Positions 1,181-62,200 are shown, counted from the stretch's first letter. The stretch is DNA of 64,000 bases from Candidatus Freyarchaeum deiterrae (GCA_037305845.1 CP147778.1:1760001-1824000), one strand, 5' to 3'. Numbers and translations: made by a program. The notes: generated by a model not told the origin, from the sequence alone.

Positions 1181-2248
1181 ATGTTTGAAGCCAATGATTC
1201 TGAATTAGTTAATAAGATAATTGAAATTCGTCGAAAAAATTTGAACAGATTTAGAAAGGATTTCAAAGAGAAACCTGTAAAATACTGGTTGGAAAAGGAC
1301 AGATTTTTGAACAAGATTGGGACTTCTTTAGTCGTTATTCTTGCCACGAGAGGTTGTAATTGGGCATTATCCAGCGGAGGGGGCTGCTCGATGTGCGGTT
1401 ACATTTATGATTCTCCCTTAACTATTCCAGATTCTGATTCTTTAATCAAACAATTTGATTTAGCGTGTAAAGCTAGCATACCGGTTAAAGACTCCTTGGC
1501 AATTAAGATTTTTACTTCGGGAAGTTTTTTTGATGAGAGGGAAGTCCCGAAATCCGCACAAGAAGCAATTCTAAAAAGAATAGTTATGGATAAACGGGTT
1601 GAAGAAGTAATTGTTGAAACAAGGCCAGAATATGTTAATAAGGAAATTTTAAAGGAATGCTGTGAGATTCTGGGAAAAATCCATTTTGAGATAGCAATTG
1701 GTCTGGAAACAAGCAATGATAATATTAGAAATAATTATATAAACAAAGGTTTTAAACTCAAAGACTTTGAGAGAGCTGTTTCCATAGCTAAGCACTCCGG
1801 AGTAGGCGTCAAATCCTACCTCCTCATAAAACCTCCATTTCTAAGGGAGAGAGAAGCCATAATAGATTCTACAAACTCTGCTATAGATTCTTTTAAAATG
1901 GGAGTTGATTCGGTGTCCTTTAACCCCTGTACAGTACACAAAGGTACTCTGGTGGAACATCTTTGGGAAATAGGCAGATACAGGCCTCCGTGGCTTTGGA
2001 GCATAATTGAAATCCTGAAAAATACCTCCGAAAAGTTAAATGACAAAATAAGAATAATCTGCAGTTTAGCTGGAATAGGAAGCGAAAAAGGCCCCCATAA
2101 CTGTGGAAAATGCGACGCGAGAATCCGTGAACTACTGAATGAATTTACATTAACTCAAAACCCCGAAGTACTATCCAATATTGAATGCGACTGTAAACAA
2201 GAATGGCTTGATTATTGCGAATCAGAGTTTATCTGGAACTATTTCTGA
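1181..2248 (+). CDS. Archaeosine biosynthesis radical SAM protein RaSEA
   Basis: TRGCNW..GGCSMCGY, KIFTSGSFFD, ETRPE, GPHNCGKCD motifs; immediately downstream of arcS. Confidence 0.88.
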   Translation: MFEANDSELVNKIIEIRRKNLNRFRKDFKEKPVKYWLEKDRFLNKIGTSLVVILATRGCNWALSSGGGCSMCGYIYDSPLTIPDSDSLIKQFDLACKASIPVKDSLAIKIFTSGSFFDEREVPKSAQEAILKRIVMDKRVEEVIVETRPEYVNKEILKECCEILGKIHFEIAIGLETSNDNIRNNYINKGFKLKDFERAVSIAKHSGVGVKSYLLIKPPFLREREAIIDSTNSAIDSFKMGVDSVSFNPCTVHKGTLVEHLWEIGRYRPPWLWSIIEILKNTSEKLNDKIRIICSLAGIGSEKGPHNCGKCDARIRELLNEFTLTQNPEVLSNIECDCKQEWLDYCESEFIWNYF

Positions 2249-2368: not shown

Positions 2369-2905
2369 ATGAGTCCGGTAATTATGTTTCAAGATAAAAA
2401 GCCAAAAATTCATAAAGACGCGTATGTTAGCCCACAAGCAACTCTAGTAGGAGATGTCGAGGTCGGAGAATTCACAAATATCTGGCCAGGAAGCGTAATT
2501 AGGGGCGACTTTGCAAAAGTACAAATCGGCGCTTACACAAATATACAAGATGGATGCGTAGTTCACGCTCATACAGCGGATACTCCAGTTATTGTTGGAA
2601 ACTTTGTCACTGTTGGAAGCAATGTGGTGATGCATGGCTGTTACTGTGGAGACGCAGTTGTGATAGGAGACGGCGTAATAATATATGAAGGCGTGACCAT
2701 CGGAGAAGGAGCTTTTGTTTCTCCAGGATCGATTTTGGTACAAAACATGGTTATTCCACCCCGATTAACTGTCTCAGGCGCGCCAGCGAAGCAAATCAGG
2801 GAACTATCAAGGGAAGACATTACAAAACAAAGGGAAAGGGCTGAAATCATCGCAAGGGTATTCTCAAAACTCCGAAGATGGATACCTTCTGAGACGGCCC
2901 TCTAG
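2369..2905 (+). CDS. Gamma-class carbonic anhydrase family (left-handed beta-helix) protein
   Basis: Hexapeptide repeats; IRGD, NIQD..VVH motifs; GGAGG SD upstream. Confidence 0.85.
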   Translation: MSPVIMFQDKKPKIHKDAYVSPQATLVGDVEVGEFTNIWPGSVIRGDFAKVQIGAYTNIQDGCVVHAHTADTPVIVGNFVTVGSNVVMHGCYCGDAVVIGDGVIIYEGVTIGEGAFVSPGSILVQNMVIPPRLTVSGAPAKQIRELSREDITKQRERAEIIARVFSKLRRWIPSETAL

Positions 2906-3233
2906 GAAGCCCCTTTGGCACAAAACAAGTCTTTGTTTAGATACTCATCGTGTCTCCTGTGAAAACAATATCCAGACAGAGTGGAAATAGAATGCCATTT
3001 AAAAATTGATATTTGAATTCTTTAAAAGAATTCAAAAATTCTATTACTCCTTTTTTTAGTTAATAACTGAATTTATTTAACTTTATGATTTCACCATTAA
3101 GTAGCCTTTTAAAAATATTAAATTTCATATTTGTTAGTATATAATAAGACCTTAGTTTTGCACCCATTAGGTTAAAGATTTATTTTACATTACATAATAG
3201 TTGACAGTTGACTTACTTCAATGGAGGTTGTTC

Positions 3234-4727
3234 ATGTCTAAATGGCCTTTTATTGCGGGCGACTACTTTGTTGGAAACGAAAAATCTGCTATTGCCGTAG
3301 TTACTTGCGGATCTTACGAGTTACCAAAAGAGTTAGCTAAGCTGAGTAATAAAATAGCAATTGTTGGTTTCTGTGAAACTGAAAATGATGGAATAGCAAA
3401 GATTCTACAAAACCTAGCTTCTAACCCCTATGTTAGAATACTTATTATCTGCGGTGAAAGAGTGGTTGGTCATGAACCCGGACAAACACTCATATCGCTC
3501 TACAATAATGGGATTGATAAAAACTACAAAATCAAAGGGAGTGAGGGAACTATCCCCATTCTTCACCCAAACTATTTTCACGGAGATGATCCGAATAAAT
3601 TTGTTGAAAGATTTCAAAGACAAATCATCAATGTCTTAGACGCCAGGGGAGAAACTGACATTGAAAAAATAATCTCTTTCATCAATGAGTTTGATGAACA
3701 AAATCTCTCTCCCTTTCCTGAGGATCCTATCCTTCCTTTAAGACCCAAAGTCGAATACGATTGGGATACAGGGGTAAAGCGATTTCTAGACGAAAACAGA
3801 TTCTATTTTAATAAGGGCATACCTCTGTTAAATCCTTTAATATTTACTGGACAATTGAAAGTTTATGATATCGCAGGAATTAAGATAGGCGGGCAGAGAG
3901 GCGAGTATCCTATAATTTTGGCTGGTACCATGTTTTACAGGGGAGATAAATTAGTAAGTAATCACGATGAAGGCCTTTTTGATAAAACTAAGGCCGAGGA
4001 GCAAATTAGAAAGCAAGACGAAAACTCATTAAAGTACGAACTTCCTGCAATTGTACACATCGTAGGAGAGACTACTAAAGCTTTAACAAATTATCTTCTA
4101 TTTGTCGCGGATTCTACAGATTCACCAATAATTATCGATTCACCCATTTTAGAATCAAGAATAGAAGCGATGAGCGTAGCCAAAGATACGGGGCTAGATA
4201 GTAGAGTAATATACAACTCAGTGATTAGCGCGGATAAAAAAGAAAAAAACCTAATAAACGAAATTGGAACAATAGAATATTCCATAGTTTTACCCTTTGA
4301 TGTAAAACTAACCTCAAGGATTAGCAGACTTGAGGAAATACTGAAATTTGTCGGAGACGCAATCAAAAATCCGATCATCGATCCTGGTGTCTCTATTCTA
4401 GGAGAAGGTTCGCTAAGCGCTTTGCATGCGGCTTGGTTGCTCAAAAATTATTATGGTTACCCCGTGTGTATTGGAGTGCATAACTTACAGTCTAGAATCA
4501 CTGAAAGTAAGAAGGAATTAAAAGAACTCGATTTCTCATTTGATTATGCTCTACCTTCCTTTTATGGAATTGATATAAATCTTTACGGTCCAATAAAAAA
4601 CGCAGATAGTATATTCAGAGAGGTAGCAGCTGTTGAAGCTGCAATTGCGGATGAGAATGTAAATACCATTGGAGTTTCTCCTAAACCTCCTCATCCCTAC
4701 TATGCTGTGAACCTTGGTCGTGAATAA
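3234..4727 (+). CDS. Soluble MtrA-MtrH (MtxA-MtxH-like) fusion: corrinoid protein plus methyl-H4MPT/H4F methyltransferase
   Basis: N-terminal WP..GDY.VG, G.CETENDGI.K...N..SNP..R, GHEPGQ (cobamide His). From about residue 205, IAGIKIGGQRGEYP..LAGTMFY (MtrH start), IIDS, YNS, YGPI. ATG 3234 follows a GGAGG SD (ORF track starts at TTG 3201). No TM anchor. Confidence 0.85.
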   Translation: MSKWPFIAGDYFVGNEKSAIAVVTCGSYELPKELAKLSNKIAIVGFCETENDGIAKILQNLASNPYVRILIICGERVVGHEPGQTLISLYNNGIDKNYKIKGSEGTIPILHPNYFHGDDPNKFVERFQRQIINVLDARGETDIEKIISFINEFDEQNLSPFPEDPILPLRPKVEYDWDTGVKRFLDENRFYFNKGIPLLNPLIFTGQLKVYDIAGIKIGGQRGEYPIILAGTMFYRGDKLVSNHDEGLFDKTKAEEQIRKQDENSLKYELPAIVHIVGETTKALTNYLLFVADSTDSPIIIDSPILESRIEAMSVAKDTGLDSRVIYNSVISADKKEKNLINEIGTIEYSIVLPFDVKLTSRISRLEEILKFVGDAIKNPIIDPGVSILGEGSLSALHAAWLLKNYYGYPVCIGVHNLQSRITESKKELKELDFSFDYALPSFYGIDINLYGPIKNADSIFREVAAVEAAIADENVNTIGVSPKPPHPYYAVNLGRE

Positions 4728-4729
4728 AA

Positions 4730-6004
4730 ATGAGTTTTTACGGTCCATATTTGATTCGAACTAGAAGCATAGATGTTGCATGGAGAAGCTGTATCAACAC
4801 AATTATTGAGAAGGGAATAAAACAAACAACTGAAGATAAAAGGCAAGAGACCAAAGAAACATTTTGTGCAACAATCCACATAAGTGATTGGCAAAGCGGG
4901 AAACTTGTTCCAACAAATTATATTGGACTAAGTGAGGATCTAATTCTCGAAAATTATATTCCACAGTACCTTAGTTCCGAAAGAGGAGAACACATATACA
5001 GCTATGGATGGGCAATGCGTAAAAGGTTCATGTTTAATCAATTAGACTACATCAAAGATCAGTTAAGCAGTGGAAAGAGTGTGGCATTCGCCCAATTCTG
5101 GAACCCCGCAACAGACATCACAAGCACAAATCCACCCTGTATAAATATAGTTCTTTTTCATAAGATAAATTCTAAAATTCACTCAACCATATACCTTAGA
5201 AGCAATGATATGGCAAGAGCCTACCCAGACGATGTTGCAGGTGTTTACACTGTATTTTTAACTGAGGTTTCGAGCAGATTTGGTGGAAAAAAGGCTATGG
5301 GCACCATAACTACAATCTCTGGATCTGCACACGTATATGAAACTTCTATCAACGAAATTAAACAAAGCTCTTTCGGCTCAATATCCGCTTCCAACTCTAA
5401 TCCAAAAATTAATGAAGAAAATTTGGCTGGACCGGTACTCTTCCGGTCGCACAATTTAAAAGGCCTTTTACACGAATTAGAGGTCAAGTTTCCTAAATAC
5501 TCCAAGCCTCAGGGAAAACAAAATTACTATCTATATTTCGGTTTCAAATTGGAAGAAATAAATCTAGAGTTAAAAGAATTTGAGAATCAAGCGGAAAAAA
5601 TTGTACATGGCGCAGAAAATCTCGGAAAAGCTCTAAGGTTCTATAAAGCTAAAACGGACGATGGAGAACCAGTAACAATTGATCAAATAGAATTGGCTAA
5701 AAGAAAATTAGAGGAATCAAATCAAAGCAGGAGAATAATTATTACGCCTAATAATCCTTGGATAAAAGGGTACGACCTAAATCCTTTAATTATACAATTT
5801 TTGTTAAGGCAAGGTCGCCTATTTACTTCCGTGCTTTTCGCAGATTACTCGATAAAACATATCCTGTCGGGAATTTACTTAATTAAGGCAATTCAAAATG
5901 AAATGCTGAATGGAAATAAATACAGTTTGGGGCCTATGGCGTTTTTCTTCATGCCCGCGAATAATGGCTCTGAAACTGTAGACTTCTCAGACATACTTAG
6001 TTAA
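4730..6004 (+). CDS. Thymidylate synthase/dCMP hydroxymethylase superfamily protein with two TS-like domains
   Basis: Domain 1: YSYG, WNP, NPPC (Cys137), RSND, SAHVYE. Domain 2: DQI, SRR, NP, QFLLRQGRL, but no catalytic Cys. Starts 2 nt after the mtrA-H stop. Confidence 0.8.
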   Translation: MSFYGPYLIRTRSIDVAWRSCINTIIEKGIKQTTEDKRQETKETFCATIHISDWQSGKLVPTNYIGLSEDLILENYIPQYLSSERGEHIYSYGWAMRKRFMFNQLDYIKDQLSSGKSVAFAQFWNPATDITSTNPPCINIVLFHKINSKIHSTIYLRSNDMARAYPDDVAGVYTVFLTEVSSRFGGKKAMGTITTISGSAHVYETSINEIKQSSFGSISASNSNPKINEENLAGPVLFRSHNLKGLLHELEVKFPKYSKPQGKQNYYLYFGFKLEEINLELKEFENQAEKIVHGAENLGKALRFYKAKTDDGEPVTIDQIELAKRKLEESNQSRRIIITPNNPWIKGYDLNPLIIQFLLRQGRLFTSVLFADYSIKHILSGIYLIKAIQNEMLNGNKYSLGPMAFFFMPANNGSETVDFSDILS

Positions 6005-6293
6005 CATGAGAAATGTTCAAAACTCAATTAGTAAAGCATCGGTCCGCATAAGCGTAAAAAATTTACCTACTAAAAACTATATTTTTGGATACTGCCTAAT
6101 AGCGTCCAACTATGGAAAGTGTTGTTGCTTAAGATATATTTAAAAAATGTTAATGTGTGGTGGATACACATATAAGACATCTTTAATAAAAGATATAAAT
6201 TGTGTAATAGATACATTATTATCATAGTGTGTGAAATTGGTTTAAGCGTTAAAGAAACTTGTTGATGTATTAAGAAATAGGAGGTAGAAGTAC

Positions 6294-44840: not shown

Positions 44841-46567
<1,727 letters not shown>

Positions 46568-50227: not shown

Positions 50228-53200
50228 ATGTGCGTATTCCTGATCGCACTCTTCATAGGTGCGGACGCCCAGCAGATGCAAGCGGTCCAACAGCAGATAG
50301 ACGACATCCTCCACTACGTGAACATGCCCGATATACAGCAGGCGGAAAGAGACGGAAACATCACCCACTCTCTCAACATTTTCTTCCAAGGACAAGCAAT
50401 AGGACTATACGAAGGAGGATGGCCCTGGGGACACGGCTACGAAGCCGACGTGTGGGATTCCGACTATGAAAAGACCAACCCTGGCCACGTCTACGTCTAT
50501 AATAACACCAAGAATATAGGAGGCCGAAGAACCCTCTACTTCGAAATAATAAGTTACCCATACTACGACATAAACAGCCTCCCCGACGGCTTGGTGCGCG
50601 AACTGTGCGGTAACTACACAGACCCCCTAGCCAAACCTGAACCGCTGGTAATCTACTGCCAGTACGATGATGAGAAGGTTCCCTGGGCTGGCGACAAAAC
50701 CTCGCTCTCCACGTTTCTGGGAAGAATGCTTCTACTCTCCAAGCTCAGGCACATAGACTACAGCAGCCCCATAGACCTAGCGGAGCAGTGGTCCAATTAT
50801 CTGGATAGGTATCAGTTCGACTTCAACGATCTGGACTACATATATCGGAACTTTCCTCTGGTATTGCAGAATCCCTGGTTATGGCTCCAAAGCGGCTCCA
50901 GCCTGAACAGTTTAATGGAGCTTGTAGGCTCCGGTGTAAAGCTGAGTGATTTCAGCTTCGTGAGCGGCGATAACCCGCTATTCAATTTTCTGAACTCCGT
51001 TTGGGGGGCGGAGGAGTACCACTCCCTCTGGGAGGCGGCTTTTAACCAAACCAACGCCTGGCAGCTAGTACGCTACAACGATACCTTTGTACCTCTGCCA
51101 TACTTGGTAACCTACACCCACATCTTGGACGAGATGGGTGTTCTCGACCTGTTTGGCGAATCGGGCTCCGAACTCTACGGCGCGTATAATAATTGGGGCC
51201 TCAATCTGAACGGTTCCAACTCTTTGTATAGTTACGAGTTCATCCTGAGCAGTATCTTTGATTCACGGGCGGAAAGCCTTCTAATTGATAGCTGTAGCAA
51301 CGCCTCAATGTGGAACGCAACCGGGGAGAACGCTACCCTATCCACAGACGGCTACAGCGTAACAGTAAGCGTTATGGGCAACCACTCAAACACCACCACC
51401 CTCAGCCACAATTTAGCTCAGCCCGTAGACCTCTCCCCTTATGACAGCTTGCTTCTGTGGTTCAATATGATTAACGCCACTAGAAGCAACTTCGCAACCC
51501 TCAAGATTACTCTGTATGATGGGGAGGGAGACTGGAGGGAATACTCCACCTGGGCTTACGATACCTCTGACAGGTGGGAGAGAATAACACTGGACTTGGA
51601 TGAACCTGACCTTCAGAGTGGAAGCTTCGGCTCCCTGACCAATATCACTATTACCGCCACCCTCAACCAAATCCTCAATTACAGCCTCTCAATTGATGAT
51701 GTTCGCGTCAATTCTCATATATTGGGTGAGTGCCTCTGGGACACAGATTGGTCGCATCAACTGGTTAATGGGACTGGAGACCTCAACATCGCGGTTTACG
51801 GCTTCCCCTACGTTTACGACTACTATCCATACAGCCTCGGTCTCGAGTGGAACTTGTCCAGTTCAAACGGCTCCGCCGCTTACGTTTATGATCCTCAAGG
51901 GGTCTGGAGCCTTGATTCCCAGAGCTTCCTAACCTTCATGCTCTACGGCTTTGGGACCGAGGATCAGAACGCCAGCCTCAAGGTACGCCTGTGCATCGAT
52001 GAAAACAACTCTCTGGACTACTCTCTGGGAAAGGTGGACTGGTACGGTTGGAGAAAAGTAGTCATCCCCCTAAGCCTGATGAATGAGACTGGAAACGAGA
52101 ATCTCTCCAGCGTGGACTACCTCAAATTTGAACTCGGCGAAATGAGTAACGGCACAGGAATGCTGGTTGTGAGCGATGCGGAATTGGACTCCGCTCAATG
52201 GGCTAAGGTGGAGTTCGTGGTTCCTGATACGGTGCGCGATGCGGACGGTGACAACCACCCCAGCATAAGTCTGGACTGCTGGAATGGAGCAGAGTGGGTT
52301 ACAGTGGGGCAGTGGGATGCGGACGATTCAAACAGCACTATAGCACAAGAAACACTGTGGGGCAATCTAACATATCTGGACGGCACCCCTTCGAGTGACC
52401 TCTTCTCAGGTCAGAGTCTATGCTTGTATCCTGTGGGCACTGGATCTCAGAATCCCTACTCAGGTTTTGCTGGAGACATAAACTATACTACGGCGGAGGA
52501 CTCTGCGGGCTTTGCTGTACTGCTGCCTTCTCCCTCTCAAGAAAACCTGAGCAGTGTCCTGTTCAGGGTGGAGGTGTGCTTTGATGACTCAAACTATTAT
52601 GTTAACACTCGGGATTATCCGCTCGCCTTCTTTTACTTTAACTCCTCTTTCACCAACATGAGCCTGAAGGCTAACGATACTGAAATGGCCGAGCATGAAC
52701 TGTTTTACGGTAACGGTTCCACGGTTCTCTTCCTCGACTTGGAGGCCGCTCTGGATAACGTGAACCTCAAGGAGTTTCGAGCAGACGCTGGAAATGTAAC
52801 CCTAACCTCAGCCTTTTTCAGTTGTTTGGATGATTGGACGGTGGACAGCCTGAACTCCACCGTTTTTGTGGCGGGTGGTGAGGAGGAAGGAGGAGTCTTC
52901 GTTCAGGGCTCGGAACACCTCTATCTAAACTACACCTTCTCACCCGAACTCAGCATAAGCTATGATAATGCTTATGTTGATGTGGTTTACTCCAGCTCCT
53001 ACAGCAGCAGTAGTGAGCAAAACCAGACGAACCTCGCCCTTTGGGTAAGGGTTGATGATAACTGGCTGAATTACAGCCTGCCCAACGACGCGGAATCCAA
53101 GAGGATTCGAATCCCACTCAACGGCACCCACATGGAAGAAATATGCTTTGAGCACACTACAAATAATACTACTACCGACTGGTTCAAAGTTGAATCCCTA

Positions 53201-56200
53201 GAAGTTTTCTACCTCACCAACATCACACAATATTTACAGACTGCTCTAGGCTATATGAATGAAACCAGTTTGACGGCACCCGGATACAATCCCCGATTCA
53301 CTCAGACACTGAACACGACAGAGCTTCCCACGAGTTTGTCCGCGTGGGCATATGTGAACGGAAGCAGCTCGCTCACCGTAGAGTTCTTTGATGAGAATGG
53401 AGCCTTCCTAAAATCGGATACGGTGTGCAGCGGGGGTTCCAACTGGTATCCGGTCTGCCTAGTGGACTTGACTCAGCCTGCGAACGCATCAACTCTGAAG
53501 TTTATAGTGGCAGCGGATAAACTGGATCATGCTTACCTCTGTCCCTCAATCTTGACCAGCAGTGGAATATATGAAAGCTTCAACAGCCTTGAGGGCTGGA
53601 CTGCTTTAGGCAACGGGACAGCGGAGAATAACAGTCAGGGATTAACGGTAACACTGAACAACGGGACTCTGACCCTGTGGACTGATGTATCGGAGCTGGG
53701 ATTCGACTTTTCAAGTTTCGACACCATAGCCGCCGCATATAACATAAGCGGCGACGTGAAGGCGAACATAGTTTTCGACTGGCTTCTTGTGGATGCGGAC
53801 GGAAACCAAGCGGAGTATCAGTCTTACGTGAATCTGTCCCGAGATTCAGCTTGCGCTATTGACCCTATATCCCAGTATTATAAGATTTATGCTCCAATTT
53901 CCTTCCCATTTGAGGATTGTGTGGAGAACTTCTCTTACACGAATTTTGACTTGAACCGAATCATGCTCAACTTCTCGGGAACCGGTCAGGCTAACGTATC
54001 CTGGGTTCAGACCCTGTATATTCCCGATTGGTACTTCATATCGGTAACCGAGAATATAACATCAACCCACCTATACGTGAACTGGCTCACCAAATCCCTA
54101 GTGTTCGGCGGCGTTTTTAACAGCAGTGCGGGTGAGCCGAACTGGGTGGGGCTTATGCACACTTTCTCAGAGGATGTGAACCTCACAACTAATCCAGTAT
54201 TGGAAGTGAATTTCCGAACCCAGAACACCAGCCTCAAGCTGGGCTTAGAAGTCTTGGTTTATGATGAGCTGGGCTTTCAGTGGGTATGGGCGAAGCTACC
54301 CGCCTCAGAAGTTATCTTCGAGCACCCCATATACACACCAACCTTCGTGAACATTCCCGATTACCTTCGGTCGAACAACGGACGTCTGTACACATCCCTC
54401 CGAGCCATCCGACTGTACGTGAATGATACAACTGGTAACTATTCCGGACTGGGAAGCATGGAGATATCAAGCATTTGGCTACACCCCGCCTGCGGCGCTC
54501 CCCTGTCTTTCTTGGTATTGGATGATTTCGAGGCCGATGACCTTTCCCGGTGGCAGGAAGAGGCGGGCTGGCTTCTCCCCTACACCGACCTCAACCAGTG
54601 GAGCAGCAACCAGATAATCTGCGGCGGAAACATAGCGTATGGTCCCCCTGGTTGGGAGGACGACAGCTTTCAGACCGGCTGGTACAGCGGGTACAACTAC
54701 TCCTCAAACGGTGACGTCCTGACTTGGACCCCCTCCAACTACCCGTTAAACGTCTACAACATCACCGGCGGTAGCTCAGACGCCGAGGTCGAGTTAAGCA
54801 CGTATCTCAATACTCGGTGGTTCCGCCCCGGGGACACTCAGATGAGGCTGGGCCGCGAGGACACGACCTGTTGGGTCTACGTACCTCCCTATGCTTATCC
54901 TGTTACTGTATATGTTTACAAGCGAACCTTCGTCCGGTTTCCGCTCTACATCCCCGAGAACGCTATCATAACCAACGCTTGGATAAGCCTCAAGTCTAAG
55001 ACCAACGAAACCAATAGCATTCCCTGCGCCGTAAACCTGCTGGACTCCGGCAACTTTCCAGAATTCACAGACGACCCCTGGAATTGGCCGACCTCTGGTG
55101 GCGCTGTGGGTTGGACTGCGCCGAGTACCATTGCGGATTGCTGGTACAATACTTCAAACATTTCCACATTGGTTCAACGTTTCATAAACACGACGGGATA
55201 CTACCCCGGTAAATACGTGGGATTCAGACTTATGGACAACGATACCATAGGTGCCTGGAAGACTTGGTATACCTACGAGAGTGACCCGCAGAATGCCCCC
55301 AAGCTCTACGTGTCCTATACCGTTCCGGGGAACTACTACATTTCGAAGGCTGTAAATGTGGATGTCGGCGAGTATCCCTGCCTCGTTTTCAGAGCGAAGT
55401 GTAACGTGGACAACAGCACGATACATCTGGCTCTAGGAACTCCTGAGGATCGTTACTATTTTAAAACTTACTTCGAACTCAATCAGTCCTACCGAACCTT
55501 CGCTATTCCCATATCCAACGGCTTCAACGCCACCAGCATCACGATCTTTTATCCAGACTTTCAAAACGTGAAAGTGGACATAGACTATCTAGGACTGCTA
55601 AGGTCGGTGAGTCTCGAGGGCACGGTAATGAACAGCTCCCTCTCGGTGAACGGTGGATTTGAAAACGGCGACTTCTATAACTGGACCCTGTCGCAGTGCT
55701 ACGGGTGCACAGTTGAATCCCCTGAGTTGGTTGCTGAGGGGGTTCATGCTGGGAATATTACCTGCAATGGTGTTGGTCAGTGGCTTTCACGCACCGTGTC
55801 TGGTGATAACATAGTCAAGTTCTCAATCTACAAGCCGAGTAGCTTTAACGCAAGTAACAGATACTTCTTCCAACTATACGATGCAGACCCGTGGGGCTCA
55901 GGGAAAAAGATAACTTTCTACTTGGTGGACTCCTTTGATACAAATATGAGTGAATATGGAGACAGTAAAAACAAGGCTCTCAAATGGTCTCAGAAGAATG
56001 GAACCTATAAAGACTACTACATAGACCCCCACGCCCTGTATAATCTATACTGGAATAATACTGACCCCACACAGATTGAGGTTCGGTTCGGTGTGGAGGC
56101 AAACCAGTCATCGAACATGGTTATCGACGGCTTCGGGGTCTGGGACCGCGGTTCAGGTTTGGCACCAAATAATATTGCGATTTATCCAAGCATGCCTTTG

Positions 56201-59200
56201 GATAATCATGATTCTCTGAAGCTTTTGTACTCATTTCCCAGTGAGAGCACCGATGTCTGCACTTACACCTTCACCATAGATAGGGACTTCAGTCAAGAGA
56301 AGTACTTCTCCCTCTGGGTTTACCAAGACCAGTACAATAAGAAGTGGAACCACACGCTGGACATTTGCCTGCGCTGCAAGGACGGTAGCTTCGGCGGCTG
56401 GAACATGACCATGAACTGGTCGCAGGATTTGAAGAGGCTGGTTCTCCCACTGGACAATTTCACGTACGAGTCTGGATCAGTGGTTTCTGGGCAGTTGGAA
56501 AAAATAGTAGTCAGTTTGAAAGACCAGTACGGTTACGTCAAGGAGGACGGCTGGATTCTATTAAGCGGTCTGCTTTTCGGACACCAGTACAATTTCACTC
56601 TCACCAGTGAGAGCTATAGCGGAAGCGGAGCGGTGAGAATACAGAATCCGAGTGGAGGCTGGGTAAAAATATTTGCGTCGGGTAACGAAACGGGTACTAT
56701 TCCCTTCACGCCCGATGAGCTTCTCTGCTTCGCGGCTAAGCCTAAGGGTGACACTCCCTGGGCGGTCATGGTGGATTTAGCTCTAAAGGATGGGAGCACC
56801 GCAACCCTCGTCTGGTACCGCGGCAGTCGTCCCATTCCCTCAGAGTATCCTTACGATTACTTAACACAGATTGACTCTAACCCCGACAACTGGAACGAGT
56901 ACCGCCTGAACCTGTTCGACGCCGTAAAGAACTACGCCGAGCAGATGGGCAGGGGCGGCTTCCAGCGCATAGAGAAGATTGCGTTTCTAGTGGGCCCAGG
57001 GGAGGTGGTTTTCGACAGCGTTCTCGTGAGGAATGTTCCTGAGAACCTAGATACCAGCCCCTTAAGCGTCTTAAGCAGCCCTGTGATATTCTTCTACGAC
57101 GAGGCTTATCCCTGTAGTTGCGGCGCGGGAGGGAATGACTGGAGTTTGGTTAACGAGACCCTTACCACGCTTGAAGCAGGTTTAAAGAGCATGAACATCA
57201 GTGTGGTTTGGGCTGATGCTCAGGAAGTGAGGAAACTTGTAAGCACTTATCCCCGAAGCGTCCTTGTAATCGTAGGTAGTATTGTGCCCGATACCCTCTG
57301 CGGTAGGGAGGGTTATTCGGTTCTTGAAAACTTCGTGGAGCGTGGAGGCACGGTACTCTTTCTCAGTGATGATTACGCTCCCGTAAGCGCTGTAGGGCGG
57401 GAGGGATACGAAACACTCTGGTTCCAAGGTATGGGGCTGGAGTATCTTTTGGACGCTAAGTCTCCGACCATAGAGCTATTCAACTATTCAAGTTTGAAGC
57501 CTCTGAGCATAACCATGGATCCTACAGAGATGGGGGGCGGTCTCGGAGCTTTAAACGGTTTGAACACTTCGGGTTTCGCGTGGCTCATCCCCTACCTCCG
57601 TTATCAAAACCTGTGGGTTGAAACCTACTACTACAACAGTTCAGAACAGTTGGGGCGTGGAGTATGTGTGCGTCCTCAAGACTCGTTGGGCTACGTGGCG
57701 GAGTTCCCTCTGTCAATGGTTTCGGATGGTAACGATACCGGTGTGGTTGTGAAGTTTGTATCCGACCACTTTATCGATTTGTGGCTGGACACGTCTGGTT
57801 CTAACTTCGATGACTATGAGAGGCCTTTACCGGGGGTCTCCGATGAAAAGTTTATGGACTACTATGGAGAGATGAAGGCAGGAAACTGGAGCTTCTCAAC
57901 TGATATACCGGAGGAGGAATACTACGCTTCCGCAGAGTTCCAAGCCTTCTGGCACGTTTACCTGAACGCCTCCCTGAGTTCCGAGAGAAACGACTCCATA
58001 ACCGCCACCTATACGGTTAGCCCGAACAGCACCATTCTTCTATCGGAGTTCCCGTTCTTCACCGCAACGGTTCTCACTATAGGAAACTATACTAGGCTCA
58101 AGTTGGAGGCGGAAGTTTCGGGGCAATACTACACCCTTTTTGACGATAATGCGTCTGATTGGCGCAAGTACGTCTGGTATCTTCCCAATATTTGCGCGGA
58201 GGACGAATTTCAGGGTATGCGGGTAACTTTGTACGAGAACGATACCTGCGGTACGGGTAATGCGAGCGTCACGCTCACCAACTTAGGCGCTTACACTGTA
58301 GCCGTGCCTGAATACGGTTTCCCAAAATCCCTGAATGTGAACTTCCAGAACTCCTCTGTTTATGATTACCTGTTCTCAGGGGACAGTGATTATCCCTTCA
58401 TGGGCTTCAAGTTTAACGACACTCAGAACAGCGTTTACACTATAACCCGAGAATATCCCCACCCCTTCAGTTTCTTGGAATACCCCTACTTGGAGTTCGC
58501 CTCATCGGGCAGCGAGGGAAACTACACGGTGGAGCTGTGGCTTCAGAAGAAGTGTGGCGAGCAGAGCTACGCTTGGTACCTGCTTGACTGTTTCAACGGC
58601 TCCGATTCAGGCTCCTCACAAATGGTTATGGGATACAACCTCTACGCTAAATTCAATGCTTACTACGAACAATTCAAGAGTATAACTGCCGACCTGAAGG
58701 GCTGGAAATTAATTGTGAGGGGCAACGCCTCGCAGAACTCCTCAAAGAACTGCCTCTTCACACTAAAATACATCGCCCTCACCGATTATTACACCGGTTG
58801 GAGAATATACCCCGGTGGAATGGACTACACTGGTGGGCAAGGTTACGGTGATGGAGGAGAAATCGTCCTGAGCTTGGAGCAAGAATTAGGAGCATCAGAT
58901 AGCAGCATAAGCTCGAAGGAGAATATCGGTCTCAGTCCAAACGTCAGCTCGGTGGGTGATAGTAGCAGTTCAGGGCAGGATTCCCCTACCGTATCTGAGA
59001 GTGTCAAACCCTCCGAAGTGGATGTTTCCGAAATAGTCTCAAAGGAGGACTACTGCCTGAGCCCCAGCGCCTGGTGCGTATATAACAGCAGCGGGGGAGT
59101 CGAAGCCAAAATAGTGTCTGGCGAGTTCATTGAACTCCGGATGAGGCGGGCAATCGCCGATGACTGGGCGATGTTCAGATACGATCTGGGTGAGGGTGTT

Positions 59201-62200
59201 AACGTTTCTCAAACCAATTTCATAGACTTTAAGATGAGAGTGAGGCCCGAGGGTGGACTAAGGATTGTGGCTTACGCCGAGTTTTCATCTGCTGGTGGCC
59301 TTGTGGAGCTGGGTGAGTACTCGGCTGACGGAGTTTGGATTTCTTGGAGGCTTGATGTTCTTTCTCTGCTGGCGAAGGCGGGGGTCAACAATAGTTTGGT
59401 GACAGGGCTGGTGTTCAAGCTGGTGTGTGAGGGTGGCTCCGGCAGATACGACTGCTATGTGGATCTCTCTTACCTCAAGTTCTCGGGTTTCGCCTCATGG
59501 CGGGGCGGCTTGTCAACACTGTTCTATGATGATGGTGTCTACTCGGTTTTCCACTTTGAAGGCCTACAGGGGGCCACAATAATCTACAGCATACCTTCCG
59601 ATTATCACGACTTCAGCCTCACCTTCAATGCCAACTATCTCCTTGAGAAAACCAGTAAGGGCGTAAATGTGTTCTTCTACGACTTCACACAGGGAAGCTG
59701 GGTACATATATCAACCCTTGACCGAATGGACTCTTGGGAGAATGTAAGCGTGGGCATCGATGGAAACTTTGTGAGAGGTTATGACGGCAGATTTCTGGTG
59801 TATTTAGCTCCCATATACTCTCAGGATATTGACGTGAATCTCAGATTAGACTCGGCTGAGGTTATGGCAACCACCTCCACTCAGAACTACCTCGTTCAGA
59901 GCGGCTTATTGACTATGGGTTTGGACGGCACAGTGGATAGTGGTGATAGTTCACTGCCCACAAACTTGGATCACGTTTTCGACCACTTGGGCGGGGAGGC
60001 GGTGTGGTTTGGCGAAGACTACTACCGCGGCGGTAGCGTGAGCGACTGGCTTACCGGTTGGAGTTACCGCAAACCAGTGAGAGTGAATAATAGCGGCTCA
60101 GTGGATCTTTACAATTTTCAGGTTAAGCTAACACTTCAAGGGACTAATTCCAGTCAGGTGGGATACGTGGACTTTGGTAAGATTGCTCCCGACGGCAGTG
60201 ATATCCGGTTTACCGCAGCTGACGGGCTGAACCCTATTAGTTTCTGGATTGAGAACTGGAACAACACTAACCAGACTGCCACTGTGTGGATCAAGTGCCC
60301 GCTTCTAGGGAATAACTCGGTGACCGTTTACTACATGTACTACGGTTTCAAGAATGCGGAGAGCCTGAGCAACGGTGAGGACACCTTCCTATTCTTCGAC
60401 GACTTCTCCGGAGATATTCTGAATCCGGGGAACTGGATTGTTACGGGAAACGTGACCGTGAACAATGGCGTGGTAACCATAGGCGGGAACTCCATTGAGT
60501 CGAGGATTGAGAGCACTTACAAGTACGGTAATATGACGATTGTTCAGTGTCGGGGCCAAGTTTCAGACGACTGGAGTACGCCCACTCAGGTTACGAGGAT
60601 CTACTCTGTGGATGGCTCCGCTTCAGACTCCGAGTTATGGACCGTGGTTGTATATGGTACTTATTATGAGAATCACTATACCTTGAGCTCAATGATGCTG
60701 GGGCCCTACATTTATTATGGGAGTCCTTTTGGATCCCTCAGCGACTTCGTTAGGTTCAAGCTCGACATCCCCGTGGGCTCAACTATCACCAACGCCTACA
60801 TCAGTTTGAAGTCTACCAACAACGAGAGTAGCACCAACATTCAGAGCCAGGTGTGGCTGCTTAACTATTACAACTGTCCAGACTTCAGCGGCGGCGCCGT
60901 CGCTATCCAAGACATGCCCACTGTCGGTAGTCCTGTTTACTGGACTCCGACGGTTACCTATCAGGACTGCTGGTGCAACACCGCGAATATTTCCAGCCTC
61001 ATACAGAGTTACATAAGCATGAGTAATTATCAGCCCGGTGTCTGCTACGTGGGTCTCAGACTTAACGATATGAATACTCAGGTGGCTGATAAGAGTTGGT
61101 ATCAGTACGATAGCGGTGCGGGTAACGCGCCTAAACTTGTGGTCGCCTATGTTCCTCCCCCTGGTGAGGGTCAGTCGAGCGCTGTTGTATCTCTCAGCGA
61201 TTACTCAGACCCTGACCCCAGTGATGTTATCACCCTTGGGCAAGTTGACTGTTACGATTATAAGGGTAAGTGGGTGGGTGCGTTTAGGGACTATCCTCCA
61301 ATCAATTACACCATAGTGAATACTAACTGGTCTGCGGACACCAACTGGCATACTTTCCAAATATACTGGCTGGGGGCTAACAGCACCAGTCTGTGGATTG
61401 ATAGCAATAAGTGCAATATAAGTAGTTGGTATGTTCCCGACGGGGATAATCCTCTGCGTGTTATGCATGAGGCTAACGCTGCGCAGAGGAGCGGCACTAA
61501 GCTTTTTGTGGATTACACCTTCGTGAGGAAGTATGCTCAGGTTGAGCCGATGGTGAGTTATGATTCGGAGCAACTTCCACCCAGCATTCCACCCGCTTCG
61601 TCTTCTTCTGTTCCTGTTGACCGGTTGAGTGGCTCTGAGATGGTGCATTTGTACTGGCATATGCTTGAGAATGTTTCAAGTATTGATGATTACTACTTGG
61701 AGTTCCGATTGCGCAGTGATATGGGTGCGGTTTTCAAGGAGAATGTTCAGGGTGAAGCGAACGCTAAACTGGATTTGTACAGGGAGTTTATGCTCTCCCT
61801 CAGGAGCGTAATAGAGCCGCCTGTGAACTATTCTCCTGATAGTGATTACAGTAATGTGAATATGACGGTTAGACTATATGTGCAGTACTTCTACGCGAAC
61901 AATTCGGCTATCCCGAACGGCACCATTCTGTTCAATGAGACCACAATCACCTATCTTGATGATAATAACTGGGTTAGCTATGTTCTTGATGTTCCCAGTA
62001 GAGCTCCGGCTGGAGCTAGTAAATGGACGCCCCTTATACGGGCTGTGGGTCGCCCTGCGGACAGCTTCTGCCATCTGTTCATTGACGATATGAAGTGCCC
62101 CCAGACCTACCAGACTTCGCAGCAGAACACGAGTGCTAATATTGCTTGGGTGGCGGGAGGAGATGGACATGGGCATGTTTTGAACTGCTCTAGTAATGGT

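What the first reader, a model, noticed from the sequence alone, without database searches (positions are those of the whole stretch)
3234..6004. Candidate B12-linked pyrimidine methylation system: MtrA-MtrH fusion coupled to a TS-family enzyme
Seen: two genes 2 nt apart, flanked by AT-rich spacers. Gene 1 fuses an MtrA-type corrinoid domain (His in GHEPGQ, codon 3471-3473) to an MtrH-type methyltransferase. It has no membrane anchor and no other mtr subunit lies nearby. Gene 2 is thymidylate-synthase-like. Known: MtrH moves CH3 from methyl-H4MPT to the MtrA cobamide, whereas classical TS uses methylene-folate and needs no corrinoid. Inference: the fusion makes methyl-cobamide for the TS-like partner. 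The partner's Cys would activate C5 of the pyrimidine for direct methylation, or the pair works in the demethylating direction. I know of no characterised pathway of this kind.
Basis: partly seen in the sequence, partly recalled or inferred. Interest (0 to 1): 0.9.

Follow-up and report, generated by a model that had tools for sequence, protein, structure and literature searches.

The report
B12 methyl-carrier paired with thymidylate synthase
In this Asgard archaeon and its relatives, the only recognisable thymine-making enzyme is an unusual single-chain thymidylate synthase that always follows, and is predicted to bind, a soluble vitamin-B12-type methyl-carrier protein, which points to an untested B12-dependent route to a DNA base.

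Summary
Gene 1 (3234-4727) is a soluble MtrA-MtrH fusion. The cobamide His80 and the MtrH catalytic Asp302 and Asn417 are invariant in 13 orthologues. Gene 2 (4730-6004) starts 2 nt later and is a tandem, single-chain thymidylate-synthase (TS) pseudo-dimer. The N-half keeps Cys137, RSxD and HxY, lacks the Arg-Arg pair, and has Asp168 where TS has the uracil-selecting Asn. The C-half keeps little more than Arg334-Arg335.

The pair is adjacent in 18 of 18 Asgard genomes that carry gene 2 (five families; named loci are Jordarchaeia/Freyarchaeia, Atabeyarchaeia and Sifarchaeum), while the flanking genes differ. None of the 18 has ThyX. In this closed genome gene 2 is the only TS-family hit.

A complex model scores 0.92 against 0.00 for the best control. 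Other archaea fuse a His-bearing MtrA domain directly to a TS domain.

Best reading (about 0.5): methyl-pterin to cobamide to C5 of a Cys-activated dUMP or dCMP. This chemistry is untested. The main rival is an ordinary methylene-pterin TS.

The MtrAH fusion is published as an orphan. I found no paper that links it to TS. This scan has flagged the same module on other genomes.

The parts
2906..3233 (.). AT-rich upstream spacer (27% GC) with Shine-Dalgarno-like GGAGG at 3223-3227, six bases before the ATG
3234..4727 (+). Gene 1: soluble MtrA-MtrH fusion, 497 aa (P0001)
3237..3731 (+). MtrA-type corrinoid-binding domain (residues 2-166)
   Evidence: Pfam PF04208, E 7.5e-36; matches PDB 5L8X and 5LAA at E 1e-29
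3471..3473 (+). His80 codon (CAT) in VVGHEPGQT, the predicted lower axial cobamide ligand
   Evidence: invariant in 13 orthologues; aligned with the GH of solved MtrA; codon checked
3732..3848 (+). Linker of about 39 residues between the MtrA and MtrH domains, with no hydrophobic anchor; inferred flexible tether
3849..4706 (+). MtrH/MtgA-type methyl-pterin:corrinoid methyltransferase domain (residues 206-491). Asp302 (4137-4139) and Asn417 (4482-4484) are invariant. This domain holds the predicted contact surface for gene 2's product.
4730..6004 (+). Gene 2: single-chain tandem thymidylate-synthase-fold protein, 424 aa (P0002)
4730..5374 (+). N-half TS domain (residues 1-215). It keeps Cys137, Arg157-Ser158-x-Asp160, His201 and Tyr203, and lacks the Arg-Arg pair.
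5138..5140 (+). Cys137 codon (PPC motif), the predicted catalytic nucleophile
   Evidence: invariant in 16 family members; aligns with the TS catalytic Cys
5231..5233 (+). Asp168 codon, at the position of the uracil-selecting Asn of TS (E. coli Asn177)
   Evidence: aligned to the PFN motif of solved TS; invariant Asp in the family; Asn in short archaeal TS and in MtrA-TS fusions
5375..5434 (+). Interdomain linker (residues 216-235), predicted to lie on the MtrH domain
   Evidence: contacts at 214-226, 231 and 234-239
5435..6001 (+). C-half: degenerate TS fold without Cys, RSxD or Asn
   Evidence: hhalign probability 98.1%, E 1e-13 against short archaeal TS; model pLDDT 89.9, with solved TS entries filling nearly all of the top Foldseek list at TMq about 0.65-0.68
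5729..5734 (+). Arg334-Arg335 codons in SRRIIITPNNP, equivalent to the TS Arg pair that reaches into the partner subunit's site
   Evidence: invariant; aligned with the SRR of archaeal TS
6005..6293 (.). AT-rich downstream spacer (29% GC) before the proteasome alpha gene

Best explanation
The two genes encode one soluble enzyme complex that is this lineage's thymidylate-making system. It probably works as a corrinoid relay.

**Proposed steps (all inferred):**
1. The MtrH domain takes the methyl group from methyl-H4MPT, or a methyl-folate, and puts it on the Co(I) cobamide held by His80 of the tethered MtrA domain.
2. The MtrA domain swings to the single active site of the TS pseudo-dimer, which sits docked on MtrH.
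3. There Cys137 adds to C6 of the pyrimidine nucleotide. The activated C5 takes the methyl group from methyl-Co(III). The C5 proton is removed and Cys137 leaves.
4. The pterin stays in the tetrahydro state, so no dihydropterin reductase is needed.

**Shown here:** the domain make-up and conserved residues; the strict adjacency and co-occurrence; the absence of other thymidylate synthases; the predicted interface; and the independent MtrA-TS fusions.

**Inferred:** every chemical step, the methyl donor, and the substrate. I lean to dUMP because the genome has dCTP deaminase and dUTPase. The invariant Asp168 keeps dCMP open, with later deamination to dTMP.
For: 1. **Adjacency.** The gene pair sits on the same strand with gaps of 2-80 nt in 18 of 18 genomes that have gene 2, and in 12 of 12 named loci. 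Only these two genes are shared among 9 loci.
2. **Co-occurrence.** Full-length orthologues of the fusion (48-82% identity) appear only in genomes with gene 2. Gene 2 is in 17 of 19 sampled genomes of five families and in 0 of 182 other Asgard genomes.
3. **No other thymidylate synthase.** ThyX is absent from 18 of 18 pair genomes but present in 16 of 26 other relatives. In the closed own genome, gene 2 is the only PF00303 hit.
4. **Conserved residues.** His80, Asp302 and Asn417 of the fusion are invariant. So are Cys137, Arg157, Ser158, Asp160, His201, Tyr203, Arg334 and Arg335 of gene 2.
5. **Predicted complex.** Scores were 0.92, 0.91 and 0.92 against a best control of 0.00. The runs share at least 66% of contacts and the partner's pLDDT is at least 90. 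That mark was reached by 58 of 80 solved complexes and 2 of 110 mismatched pairs, roughly, because my own alignments were used. I know of no solved MtrH-TS complex that the model could have memorised.
6. **Independent fusions.** Among homologues of P0052, 66 proteins join an MtrA domain to a TS domain. 48 of them keep the GH histidine. They carry Thermoprotei and DPANN names.
7. **Cobamide use and dUMP supply.** The genome has 15 B12-binding-domain hits above the cut-off. It also has dCTP deaminase and dUTPase above their cut-offs.
8. **Precedent in logic.** The core methionine synthase MesA is predicted to take methyl groups from MtrA (PMC7857596).
Against: - No biochemistry and no expression data exist for this pair.
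- Asp160, the counterpart of the pterin-binding Asp169 of E. coli TS, is invariant. This fits a pterin still bound in the TS site.
- The predicted interface uses the MtrH domain. No MtrA-domain residue is in contact with the TS.
- Five loci with MtrA(His)-TS fusions have no MtrH gene next to them.
- Most DPANN-type fusions lack the His, so an MtrA-like fold can accompany TS without an obvious cobamide ligand.
- Asp168 predicts a cytosine substrate, yet no clear dCMP or 5-methyl-dCMP deaminase was found.
- Methyl transfer from methyl-Co(III) to a carbon nucleophile by a polar route has only one precedent that I recall (TsrM), and none in a TS fold.
- From memory, and not readable here, Nyce and White 1996 found methylene-level C1 units in archaeal dTMP synthesis.
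Confidence: 0.5

Rival explanations
1. Gene 2 is an ordinary, though single-chain, archaeal thymidylate synthase. It uses methylene-H4MPT or methylene-folate as both carbon and hydride donor. The MtrAH fusion is a co-transcribed and perhaps bound C1 enzyme with another acceptor or an accessory role.
For: The TS fold and nearly the full catalytic set are kept, including the Asp160 counterpart of the pterin-binding Asp. [quoted passage not shown] The MtrA domain is not in the predicted interface.
Against: This reading gives no role for an invariant cobamide ligand and an intact methyl-pterin site in a partner that never separates from the TS across five families. It does not explain the independent MtrA(His)-TS fusions. 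It does not explain why Asn became Asp only in this family. No FolA-type reductase is present, though archaeal dihydromethanopterin reductases were not searched.
Confidence: 0.27
2. The TS-like enzyme acts on a cytosine nucleotide (dCMP or CMP). It makes a 5-methyl or 5-hydroxymethyl product for DNA or metabolite modification rather than for bulk dTMP supply.
For: Asp168 is invariant at the position where dCMP hydroxymethylase has Asp. From memory, the Asn-to-Asp TS mutant methylates dCMP. Foldseek also lists the CMP hydroxymethylase MilA.
Against: The genomes would then have no thymidylate synthase at all. The dCTP deaminase and dUTPase route to dUMP is present, and its product would have no consumer. 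His201 and Tyr203, which bind the deoxyribose 3'-OH in TS, are kept.
Confidence: 0.12
3. The pair runs in the demethylating direction. It strips the C5 methyl group from thymine or 5-methylcytosine nucleotides and feeds it to H4MPT, as methylotrophic corrinoid systems do with their substrates.
For: The layout resembles the substrate methyltransferase, corrinoid protein and MtrH-type methyltransferase of known demethylating systems such as MtgB/MtgC/MtgA. MtgA is a close structural relative of the MtrH domain.
Against: Co(I) attack on a C-bound methyl group with a carbanion as leaving group is chemically far harder than O-, N- or S-demethylation (established chemistry, inference). The genomes lack any other thymidylate synthase.
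Confidence: 0.03
4. The adjacency is inherited operon structure without functional or physical coupling.
For: All 18 genomes belong to one phylum and to five families, so the number of independent events is small.
Against: The flanks are reshuffled while the pair stays together at 38-47% (TS) and 48-53% (fusion) identity. The two genes co-occur strictly. The interface is predicted with high confidence against clean controls. Independent fusions of the same two folds exist elsewhere.
Confidence: 0.08

Closest known systems
Short archaeal (methanogen-type) thymidylate synthase, NCBIfam TIGR03283, ThyA superfamily PF00303
   Same: Both have the TS fold. Both have the PC catalytic Cys, RSxD, the HxY deoxyribose binders and the YxYG motif. 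TIGR03283 is the best family match for the N-half.
   Different: Gene 2 is one chain with two diverged TS folds instead of a homodimer. Its Arg-Arg pair is only in the C-half, and Cys, RSxD and HxY are only in the N-half. It has Asp in place of the uracil-selecting Asn, whereas short archaeal TS keeps Asn. It scores below the equivalog cut-off, 114.9 against 174.55. It has an obligate MtrAH neighbour.
MtrA and MtrH of the methanogen methyl-H4MPT:coenzyme M methyltransferase (PDB 5L8X, 5LAA, 8Q3V, 9QTP/9QTQ, 8Z9U)
   Same: The MtrA fold with the His ligand and the MtrH TIM-barrel methyl-pterin domain are both present.
   Different: The two are fused into one soluble chain. There is no membrane anchor and there are no MtrB-G partners (PMC11291895). 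Scores fall below the equivalog cut-offs. The acceptor cannot be the membrane MtrE/CoM site.
Asgard 'MtrAH fusion' clade described by Valentin-Alvarado et al. 2024 (PMC11291895)
   Same: It is the same protein family and the same lineages, Freyarchaeia and Atabeyarchaeia.
   Different: That paper leaves the methyl acceptor open and suggests coenzyme M. It never mentions thymidylate. Here the invariant neighbour and predicted binding partner is identified as a TS-fold enzyme.
Corrinoid three-component methyltransferase systems (e.g. MtgB/MtgC/MtgA) and cobalamin-dependent methionine synthesis (MetH; MesA predicted to use MtrA, PMC7857596)
   Same: The logic is the same: methyl-pterin, then a Co carrier, then the acceptor. 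MtgA is a close relative of the MtrH domain (E 5.7e-38). MesA is a precedent for an anabolic enzyme predicted to draw methyl groups from MtrA.
   Different: Here the acceptor enzyme has a TS fold and would methylate a carbon, not a thiolate. The corrinoid domain is of the MtrA type, not the B12-binding PF02310 type.
MtrA-TS fusion proteins of Thermoprotei and DPANN archaea (uncharacterised, annotated 'thymidylate synthase' or 'MtrA')
   Same: The same two folds are combined. 48 of 66 keep the GH histidine.
   Different: There the MtrA domain is fused to the TS, not to MtrH. The TS domain is canonical (RR, Cys, Asn). No MtrH gene is adjacent. Many DPANN forms lack the His and add a DUF4346 domain.
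T4 dCMP hydroxymethylase and CMP hydroxymethylase MilA (cytosine-specific TS-fold enzymes)
   Same: Both have Asp at the Asn177 position (and established knowledge). MilA appears among the structural matches.
   Different: Those enzymes are homodimers that use methylene-folate and add water. They have no corrinoid partner and are not the host's only TS-family enzyme.

Membership tests
Thymidylate synthase ThyA (PF00303) | TS fold and a Pfam score above the gathering cut-off | tested here: met
   41.9 bits against a cut-off of 24.3. Foldseek top hits are TS, E 3.6e-12.
Thymidylate synthase ThyA (PF00303) | Catalytic Cys in the P-C motif, RSxD, and the H-x-Y deoxyribose binders | tested here: met
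   Cys137, Arg157-Ser158-x-Asp160, His201 and Tyr203 are invariant in 16 sequences.
Thymidylate synthase ThyA (PF00303) | Asn that selects uracil (E. coli Asn177) | tested here: not met
   Asp168 is invariant. Short archaeal TS and MtrA-TS fusions keep Asn.
Thymidylate synthase ThyA (PF00303) | Homodimer in which each subunit gives an Arg-Arg pair to the other's site | tested here: not met
   It is a single chain of two TS folds. The Arg-Arg pair is only in the C-half and the Cys only in the N-half. One composite site is inferred.
Thymidylate synthase ThyA (PF00303) | Uses 5,10-methylene-pterin as carbon and hydride donor | not testable with these tools
   This needs an enzyme assay.
Methanogen-type TS equivalog TIGR03283 | Score above the curated cut-off | tested here: not met
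   114.9 bits against 174.55.
MtrA (PF04208; TIGR01111) | MtrA fold with the corrinoid-ligating His | tested here: met
   Pfam 123.8 bits against 25. His80 aligns with the GH of 5L8X and 5LAA and is invariant.
MtrA (PF04208; TIGR01111) | C-terminal membrane anchor and membership of the MtrA-H complex | tested here: not met
   No hydrophobic segment was found. There is no other MtrA in the genome and there are no mtr genes nearby. The equivalog score is 121.2 against 249.15. The absence of the full complex is also stated in PMC11291895.
MtrH / MtgA methyl-pterin:corrinoid methyltransferases (PF02007) | TIM-barrel domain with the conserved Asp and Asn of the pterin site | tested here: met
   Pfam 192.3 bits against 22.8. 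Asp302 and Asn417 align with the residues replaced in the MtgA variant entries 6SJO and 6SJP. Both are invariant.
MtrH / MtgA methyl-pterin:corrinoid methyltransferases (PF02007) | Equivalog-level identity (TIGR01114 MtrH, NF047990 MtgA) | tested here: not met
   185.4 against 271.4, and 148.4 against 550. It is a separate clade.
Corrinoid three-component methyltransferase systems | Corrinoid carrier, methyl-pterin methyltransferase, and a second methyltransferase specific for the other substrate | tested here: inconclusive
   The first two components are present in gene 1. Gene 2 is the candidate third component by adjacency, co-occurrence and predicted binding. Its methyl-corrinoid activity is untested.
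Corrinoid three-component methyltransferase systems | Reductive activase (RamA or RACo type) for the corrinoid | not tested
   This was not searched in the own genome. A RACo gene lies near one MtrA-TS fusion locus, next to CdhD.
Cytosine-specific TS-fold enzymes (dCMP or CMP hydroxymethylases) | Asp at the Asn177 position | tested here: met
   Asp168.
Cytosine-specific TS-fold enzymes (dCMP or CMP hydroxymethylases) | Acts on a cytosine nucleotide with methylene-folate and water | not testable with these tools
   This needs an assay. Genome context (dCTP deaminase, dUTPase, no other TS) argues for a role in dTMP supply.

The most novel reading that the evidence does not exclude
This is a third, cobamide-dependent class of thymidylate synthesis. 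A TS-fold enzyme takes a ready-made methyl group from a protein-bound methyl-cobamide, loaded from methyl-H4MPT or methyl-folate by MtrH, and puts it on C5 of dUMP or dCMP. The pterin stays in the tetrahydro state. The same principle would then hold for the many archaeal proteins that fuse a His-bearing MtrA domain directly to a TS domain.
Probability: 0.45. Interest if true: 0.92.

Novelty: new variant of a known kind. Interest (0 to 1): 0.8.

Why it matters
Only two ways of making thymidylate de novo are established: ThyA and the flavin enzyme ThyX. A B12-dependent route would be a third.

It would add carbon methylation by a TS fold to the known chemistry of corrinoid methyl transfer. It would explain how several Asgard lineages make DNA without ThyX, a canonical ThyA or FolA.

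It would also give a function to the orphan 'MtrAH' fusion, which the literature discusses as a methanogenesis remnant. It would tie DNA synthesis in these organisms to cobamide supply, which matters because the own genome shows no CobS.

Even if the chemistry proves classical, the protein is of interest to enzymologists. A single-chain TS with one composite active site, docked on a corrinoid protein, is a natural half-of-the-sites design.

Tried and rejected
- **Expression.** No RNA holder was listed for the stretch, so nothing can be said on expression or co-transcription.
- **tRNA call.** ARAGORN calls a tRNA-Val at 4618-4690 (-) inside gene 1. Rfam finds no tRNA there, so I treat it as a false positive.
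- **Direct comparison of the two halves.** BLASTP of the N-half against the C-half found nothing (E 1.5). Homology showed only with profiles and folds.
- **MtrA domain tree.** In a quick tree, the Asgard fusion clade is well supported (98). Its position relative to TS-fused and methanogen MtrA rests on weak or long branches, and the careful search did not finish. No donor or order of events is claimed.
- **MtrH next to MtrA-TS fusions.** None was found in five loci.
- **Literature.** Searches for DUF4346 and for MtrA plus thymidylate synthase gave nothing relevant. Nyce and White 1996 (PMC177745) is not held. What I say of it, and of Krone 1994, is from memory.
- **Model geometry.** Model coordinates are not exposed. 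I could not measure the distance between the Arg-Arg pair and Cys137, or judge whether the MtrA domain can reach the TS site.
- **Methionine synthase as the acceptor.** I considered that the fusion mainly serves methionine synthesis. A core methionine synthase gene lies elsewhere, beside its own B12-binding protein, so this is not favoured.
Full report
**What is there**

Gene 1 runs 3234-4727 on the plus strand and encodes 497 aa. A GGAGG lies six bases before its ATG. Pfam finds an MtrA domain at residues 2-166 (E 7.5e-36) and an MtrH domain at 209-481 (E 1.4e-56). NCBIfam finds the same two families, below every equivalog cut-off.

- The MtrA part aligns with the solved soluble MtrA domains 5L8X and 5LAA at E 1e-29. 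His80 (codon 3471-3473) lies on their GH motif.
- The MtrH part matches MtrH (8Z9U, E 4.9e-41) and the methyl-folate enzyme MtgA (6SJ8, E 5.7e-38). Asp302 and Asn417 lie where the MtgA variant entries 6SJO and 6SJP carry replacements.
- There is no hydrophobic anchor.

Gene 2 starts 2 nt after gene 1's stop and runs 4730-6004, encoding 424 aa. Both spacers around the pair are 27-29% GC, against 37% in the genes.

**Gene 2 is a single-chain TS pseudo-dimer**

Only residues 88-212 hit Pfam TS. The methanogen-type model TIGR03283 covers residues 8-209, below its cut-off.

In an alignment of 16 family members the N-half keeps several TS catalytic residues invariant. These are Cys137 in PPC, Arg157-Ser158-x-Asp160, His201 and Tyr203. 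It has no Arg-Arg pair.

The C-half keeps an invariant SRR...NP motif (Arg334, Arg335). It has no Cys, no RSxD and no Asn.

The two halves do not match by BLASTP. A profile of the C-half, however, matches short archaeal TS at 98.1% probability and E 1e-13, with the Cys position deleted.

- The whole protein folds with pLDDT 85 and pTM 0.89, and its structural matches are TS.
- The C-half folded alone reaches pLDDT 89.9 and also matches TS, at TMq about 0.65-0.68.

In TS homodimers the Arg pair of one subunit binds the nucleotide phosphate in the other subunit's site (established knowledge). This pattern therefore predicts one composite active site. I could not measure it, because model coordinates are not exposed.

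**Asp168**

Asp168 aligns with the Asn of the PFN motif of solved TS, which is E. coli Asn177. It is Asp in all 16 family members. Short archaeal TS of other Asgard families keeps Asn, and so do almost all MtrA-TS fusions. From established knowledge, this Asn selects uracil, dCMP hydroxymethylase has Asp there, and the Asn-to-Asp TS mutant methylates dCMP.

**The organism**

The window lies in a closed 3.58 Mb archaeal genome. The closest gene 2 homologues carry Jordarchaeia and Freyarchaeota names. A complete Freyarchaeia genome from wetland soil is published (PMC11291895), and metagenome runs from wetland and freshwater sediment hold the stretch.

**Is the pairing conserved?**

Among 40 relatives, all 14 that have the long gene 2 homologue (41-79% identity) have a full-length orthologue of the fusion (48-82% identity). 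It sits directly upstream on the same strand.

In 12 named loci the same holds in 12 of 12. These loci are Jordarchaeum madagascariense, other Jordarchaeia and Freyarchaeota, Sifarchaeum subterraneum, Atabeyarchaeia-1 and -2, LC30, and one labelled Thermoproteota. Only these two genes are shared among nine loci, while the flanks differ between lineages.

In a sample of 201 Asgard genomes, gene 2 occurs in 18. All 18 belong to five families, which hold 19 sampled genomes in total. It occurs in none of 182 others. The three genomes newly found in that sample also have the fusion next door. Full-length fusion orthologues were seen only in genomes with gene 2.

The 18 genomes are related, so they represent few independent events. 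Still, the pair has stayed together at about 40-50% identity while its surroundings changed.

**Is there another thymidylate synthase?**

The own genome has no ThyX hit, and gene 2 is its only PF00303 hit. None of the 18 pair genomes has ThyX. Sixteen of 26 other relatives do, and a further family has a short canonical TS instead.

Two draft genomes with the pair show extra TS-like pieces. One has two TAG stops inside it. The other lies in a genome with 8% estimated contamination.

The own genome also has other relevant features:

- A dCTP deaminase and an archaeal dUTPase, both above their curated cut-offs.
- No FolA-type reductase.
- 15 B12-binding-domain hits above the cut-off.
- No CobS hit.

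Its single cytidine-deaminase-family protein looks more like TadA or a cytosine deaminase than like a dCMP deaminase.

**Do the proteins bind?**

I folded the fusion and gene 2's product with my own orthologue alignments. The scores were 0.92, 0.91 and 0.92, and the best of three controls scored 0.00. The runs share at least 66% of their contacts, and the partner's pLDDT is at least 90.

In the tool's calibration, 58 of 80 solved complexes and 2 of 110 mismatched pairs reached that mark. These counts hold only roughly here. This supports binding but does not show it.

The interface joins the MtrH domain (residues 212-345 and 484-487) to three parts of gene 2's product. These are its first strand and helix (7-24, 50-53), its interdomain linker (214-239) and residues 253 and 257. 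No MtrA residue is in contact, which leaves that domain on its 39-residue tether. I know of no solved MtrH-TS complex that the model could have memorised.

**Independent fusions**

An exhaustive search with gene 2's product found only five cluster representatives of its own family. About a hundred further representatives of 450-500 aa carry the TS domain behind an extra N-terminal part of about 170 aa.

Pfam reads these as an MtrA-like domain, then TS, then PterinBD-DUF4346. Their names are Woesearchaeota, Nanoarchaeota and other DPANN. Most lack the GH histidine.

A second group fuses a much more MtrA-like domain to a canonical TS domain. Among homologues of P0052, 66 proteins have both domains. 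Of these, 48 keep the His and 41 have RR, Cys and Asn. Their names are Thermoprotei, Aenigmarchaeota, Nanohaloarchaea and DPANN. Their MtrA part is 40-45% identical to the roughly 240-residue proteins that sources name MtrA.

In five such loci no MtrH gene is adjacent. These fusions show that the MtrA fold and the archaeal TS fold have been joined more than once. The His-less forms warn that the MtrA-like fold may accompany TS without a cobamide.

**How it most likely works**

The simplest reading that uses every conserved part is a corrinoid relay:

1. MtrH moves the methyl group of methyl-H4MPT (or a methyl-folate) to Co(I) on the MtrA domain.
2. That domain carries methyl-Co(III) to the single TS site.
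3. C5 of the Cys137 adduct takes the methyl group.

The pterin is not oxidised, so no dihydropterin reductase is needed. All of these steps are inferred.

In logic, the closest precedents are MetH and the core methionine synthase MesA. MesA uses methylcobalamin in vitro and is predicted to draw on MtrA in vivo (PMC7857596).

For the substrate I lean to dUMP, because the dCTP deaminase and dUTPase route exists. Asp168 keeps dCMP open, followed by deamination. I put about 0.8 on the pair being one functional unit that supplies dTMP, and about 0.5 on the corrinoid chemistry.

**What speaks against it**

- Asp160, the counterpart of the pterin-binding Asp of TS, is invariant. A pterin may therefore still bind in the TS site.
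- The MtrA domain is not in the predicted interface.
- Fusions elsewhere lack a neighbouring MtrH.
- Polar methyl transfer from methyl-Co(III) to carbon is rare.
- There are no expression or enzyme data.

The main rival is a classical methylene-pterin TS with a bound C1 partner of unknown role, which I put at about 0.27.

**What is known**

Valentin-Alvarado et al. 2024 describe the fused MtrA-like/MtrH polypeptide of Atabeyarchaeia, Freyarchaeia and other Asgard archaea. They call its biochemical activity unclear and suggest coenzyme M as the acceptor. They do not mention thymidylate. Adam et al. 2022 call the role of MtrAH outside methanogens unclear. Filee et al. 2023 survey Asgard ThyA and ThyX without any mention of Mtr or fusions, and without these lineages. 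Searches for MtrA with thymidylate synthase and for DUF4346 found nothing relevant.

Earlier entries of this scan report the same module, and the MtrA-TS fusions, on other genomes. My tests were run independently and agree with them.

**Verdict**

The functional coupling is well supported by comparative and structural prediction. The proposed B12-dependent methylation is plausible and testable but unproven.

It is a new variant built from known families. If the chemistry holds, it is a third class of thymidylate synthesis.

Noticed in passing
window 4618-4690 (-): ARAGORN calls a tRNA-Val (anticodon TAC) inside the coding region of gene 1. Rfam finds no tRNA at gathering score, so it is probably a false positive.
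   Followed up: partly
window 44896-46517 (+): An archaeal 16S rRNA gene spans 1622 nt against a model of 1478 positions, so it may hold an insertion. No 23S rRNA match follows it in the window, and the next ORFs are on the other strand. The rRNA genes therefore seem unlinked.
   Followed up: no
window 50228-64000 (+): A giant open reading frame of at least 4591 aa runs off the end of the window.
   Followed up: no
P0039, P0041, P0043, P0048 and about 100 more: DPANN proteins annotated 'thymidylate synthase' have the layout MtrA-like domain, then TS, then PterinBD-DUF4346. The MtrA-like part usually lacks the GH histidine. No paper in the library mentions DUF4346.
   Followed up: partly
P0052, P0053, P0138, P0210-P0249; loci L041-L048: Direct fusions of a His-bearing MtrA domain to a canonical TS domain (RR, Cys, Asn) occur in Thermoprotei and DPANN contigs. 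No MtrH gene is adjacent. One locus lies 2 kb from RACo and CdhD genes.
   Followed up: partly
own genome, whole: There are 15 B12-binding-domain (PF02310) hits above the cut-off but no CobS hit. The organism may depend on salvaged cobamides.
   Followed up: no
G035:C26 and G025:C77: Another Asgard family (f7) has a short canonical TS and no ThyX. It also has a different 545-aa MtrA-MtrH fusion with a second MtrH, about 20 kb from the TS on the same contig and not adjacent to it.
   Followed up: no
G005:C121:10322-10828 and G001:C536:2249-2659: Two draft genomes of the same genus hold a second TS-like stretch. One has two in-frame TAG codons. It may be a pseudogene, contamination or recoding.
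   Followed up: no
window 1181-2248 and 2369-2905 (+): A 355-aa protein without a Pfam match and a hexapeptide-repeat transferase lie upstream of the pair. Both recur upstream of the pair in one distant locus (L036) but not in the others.
   Followed up: partly
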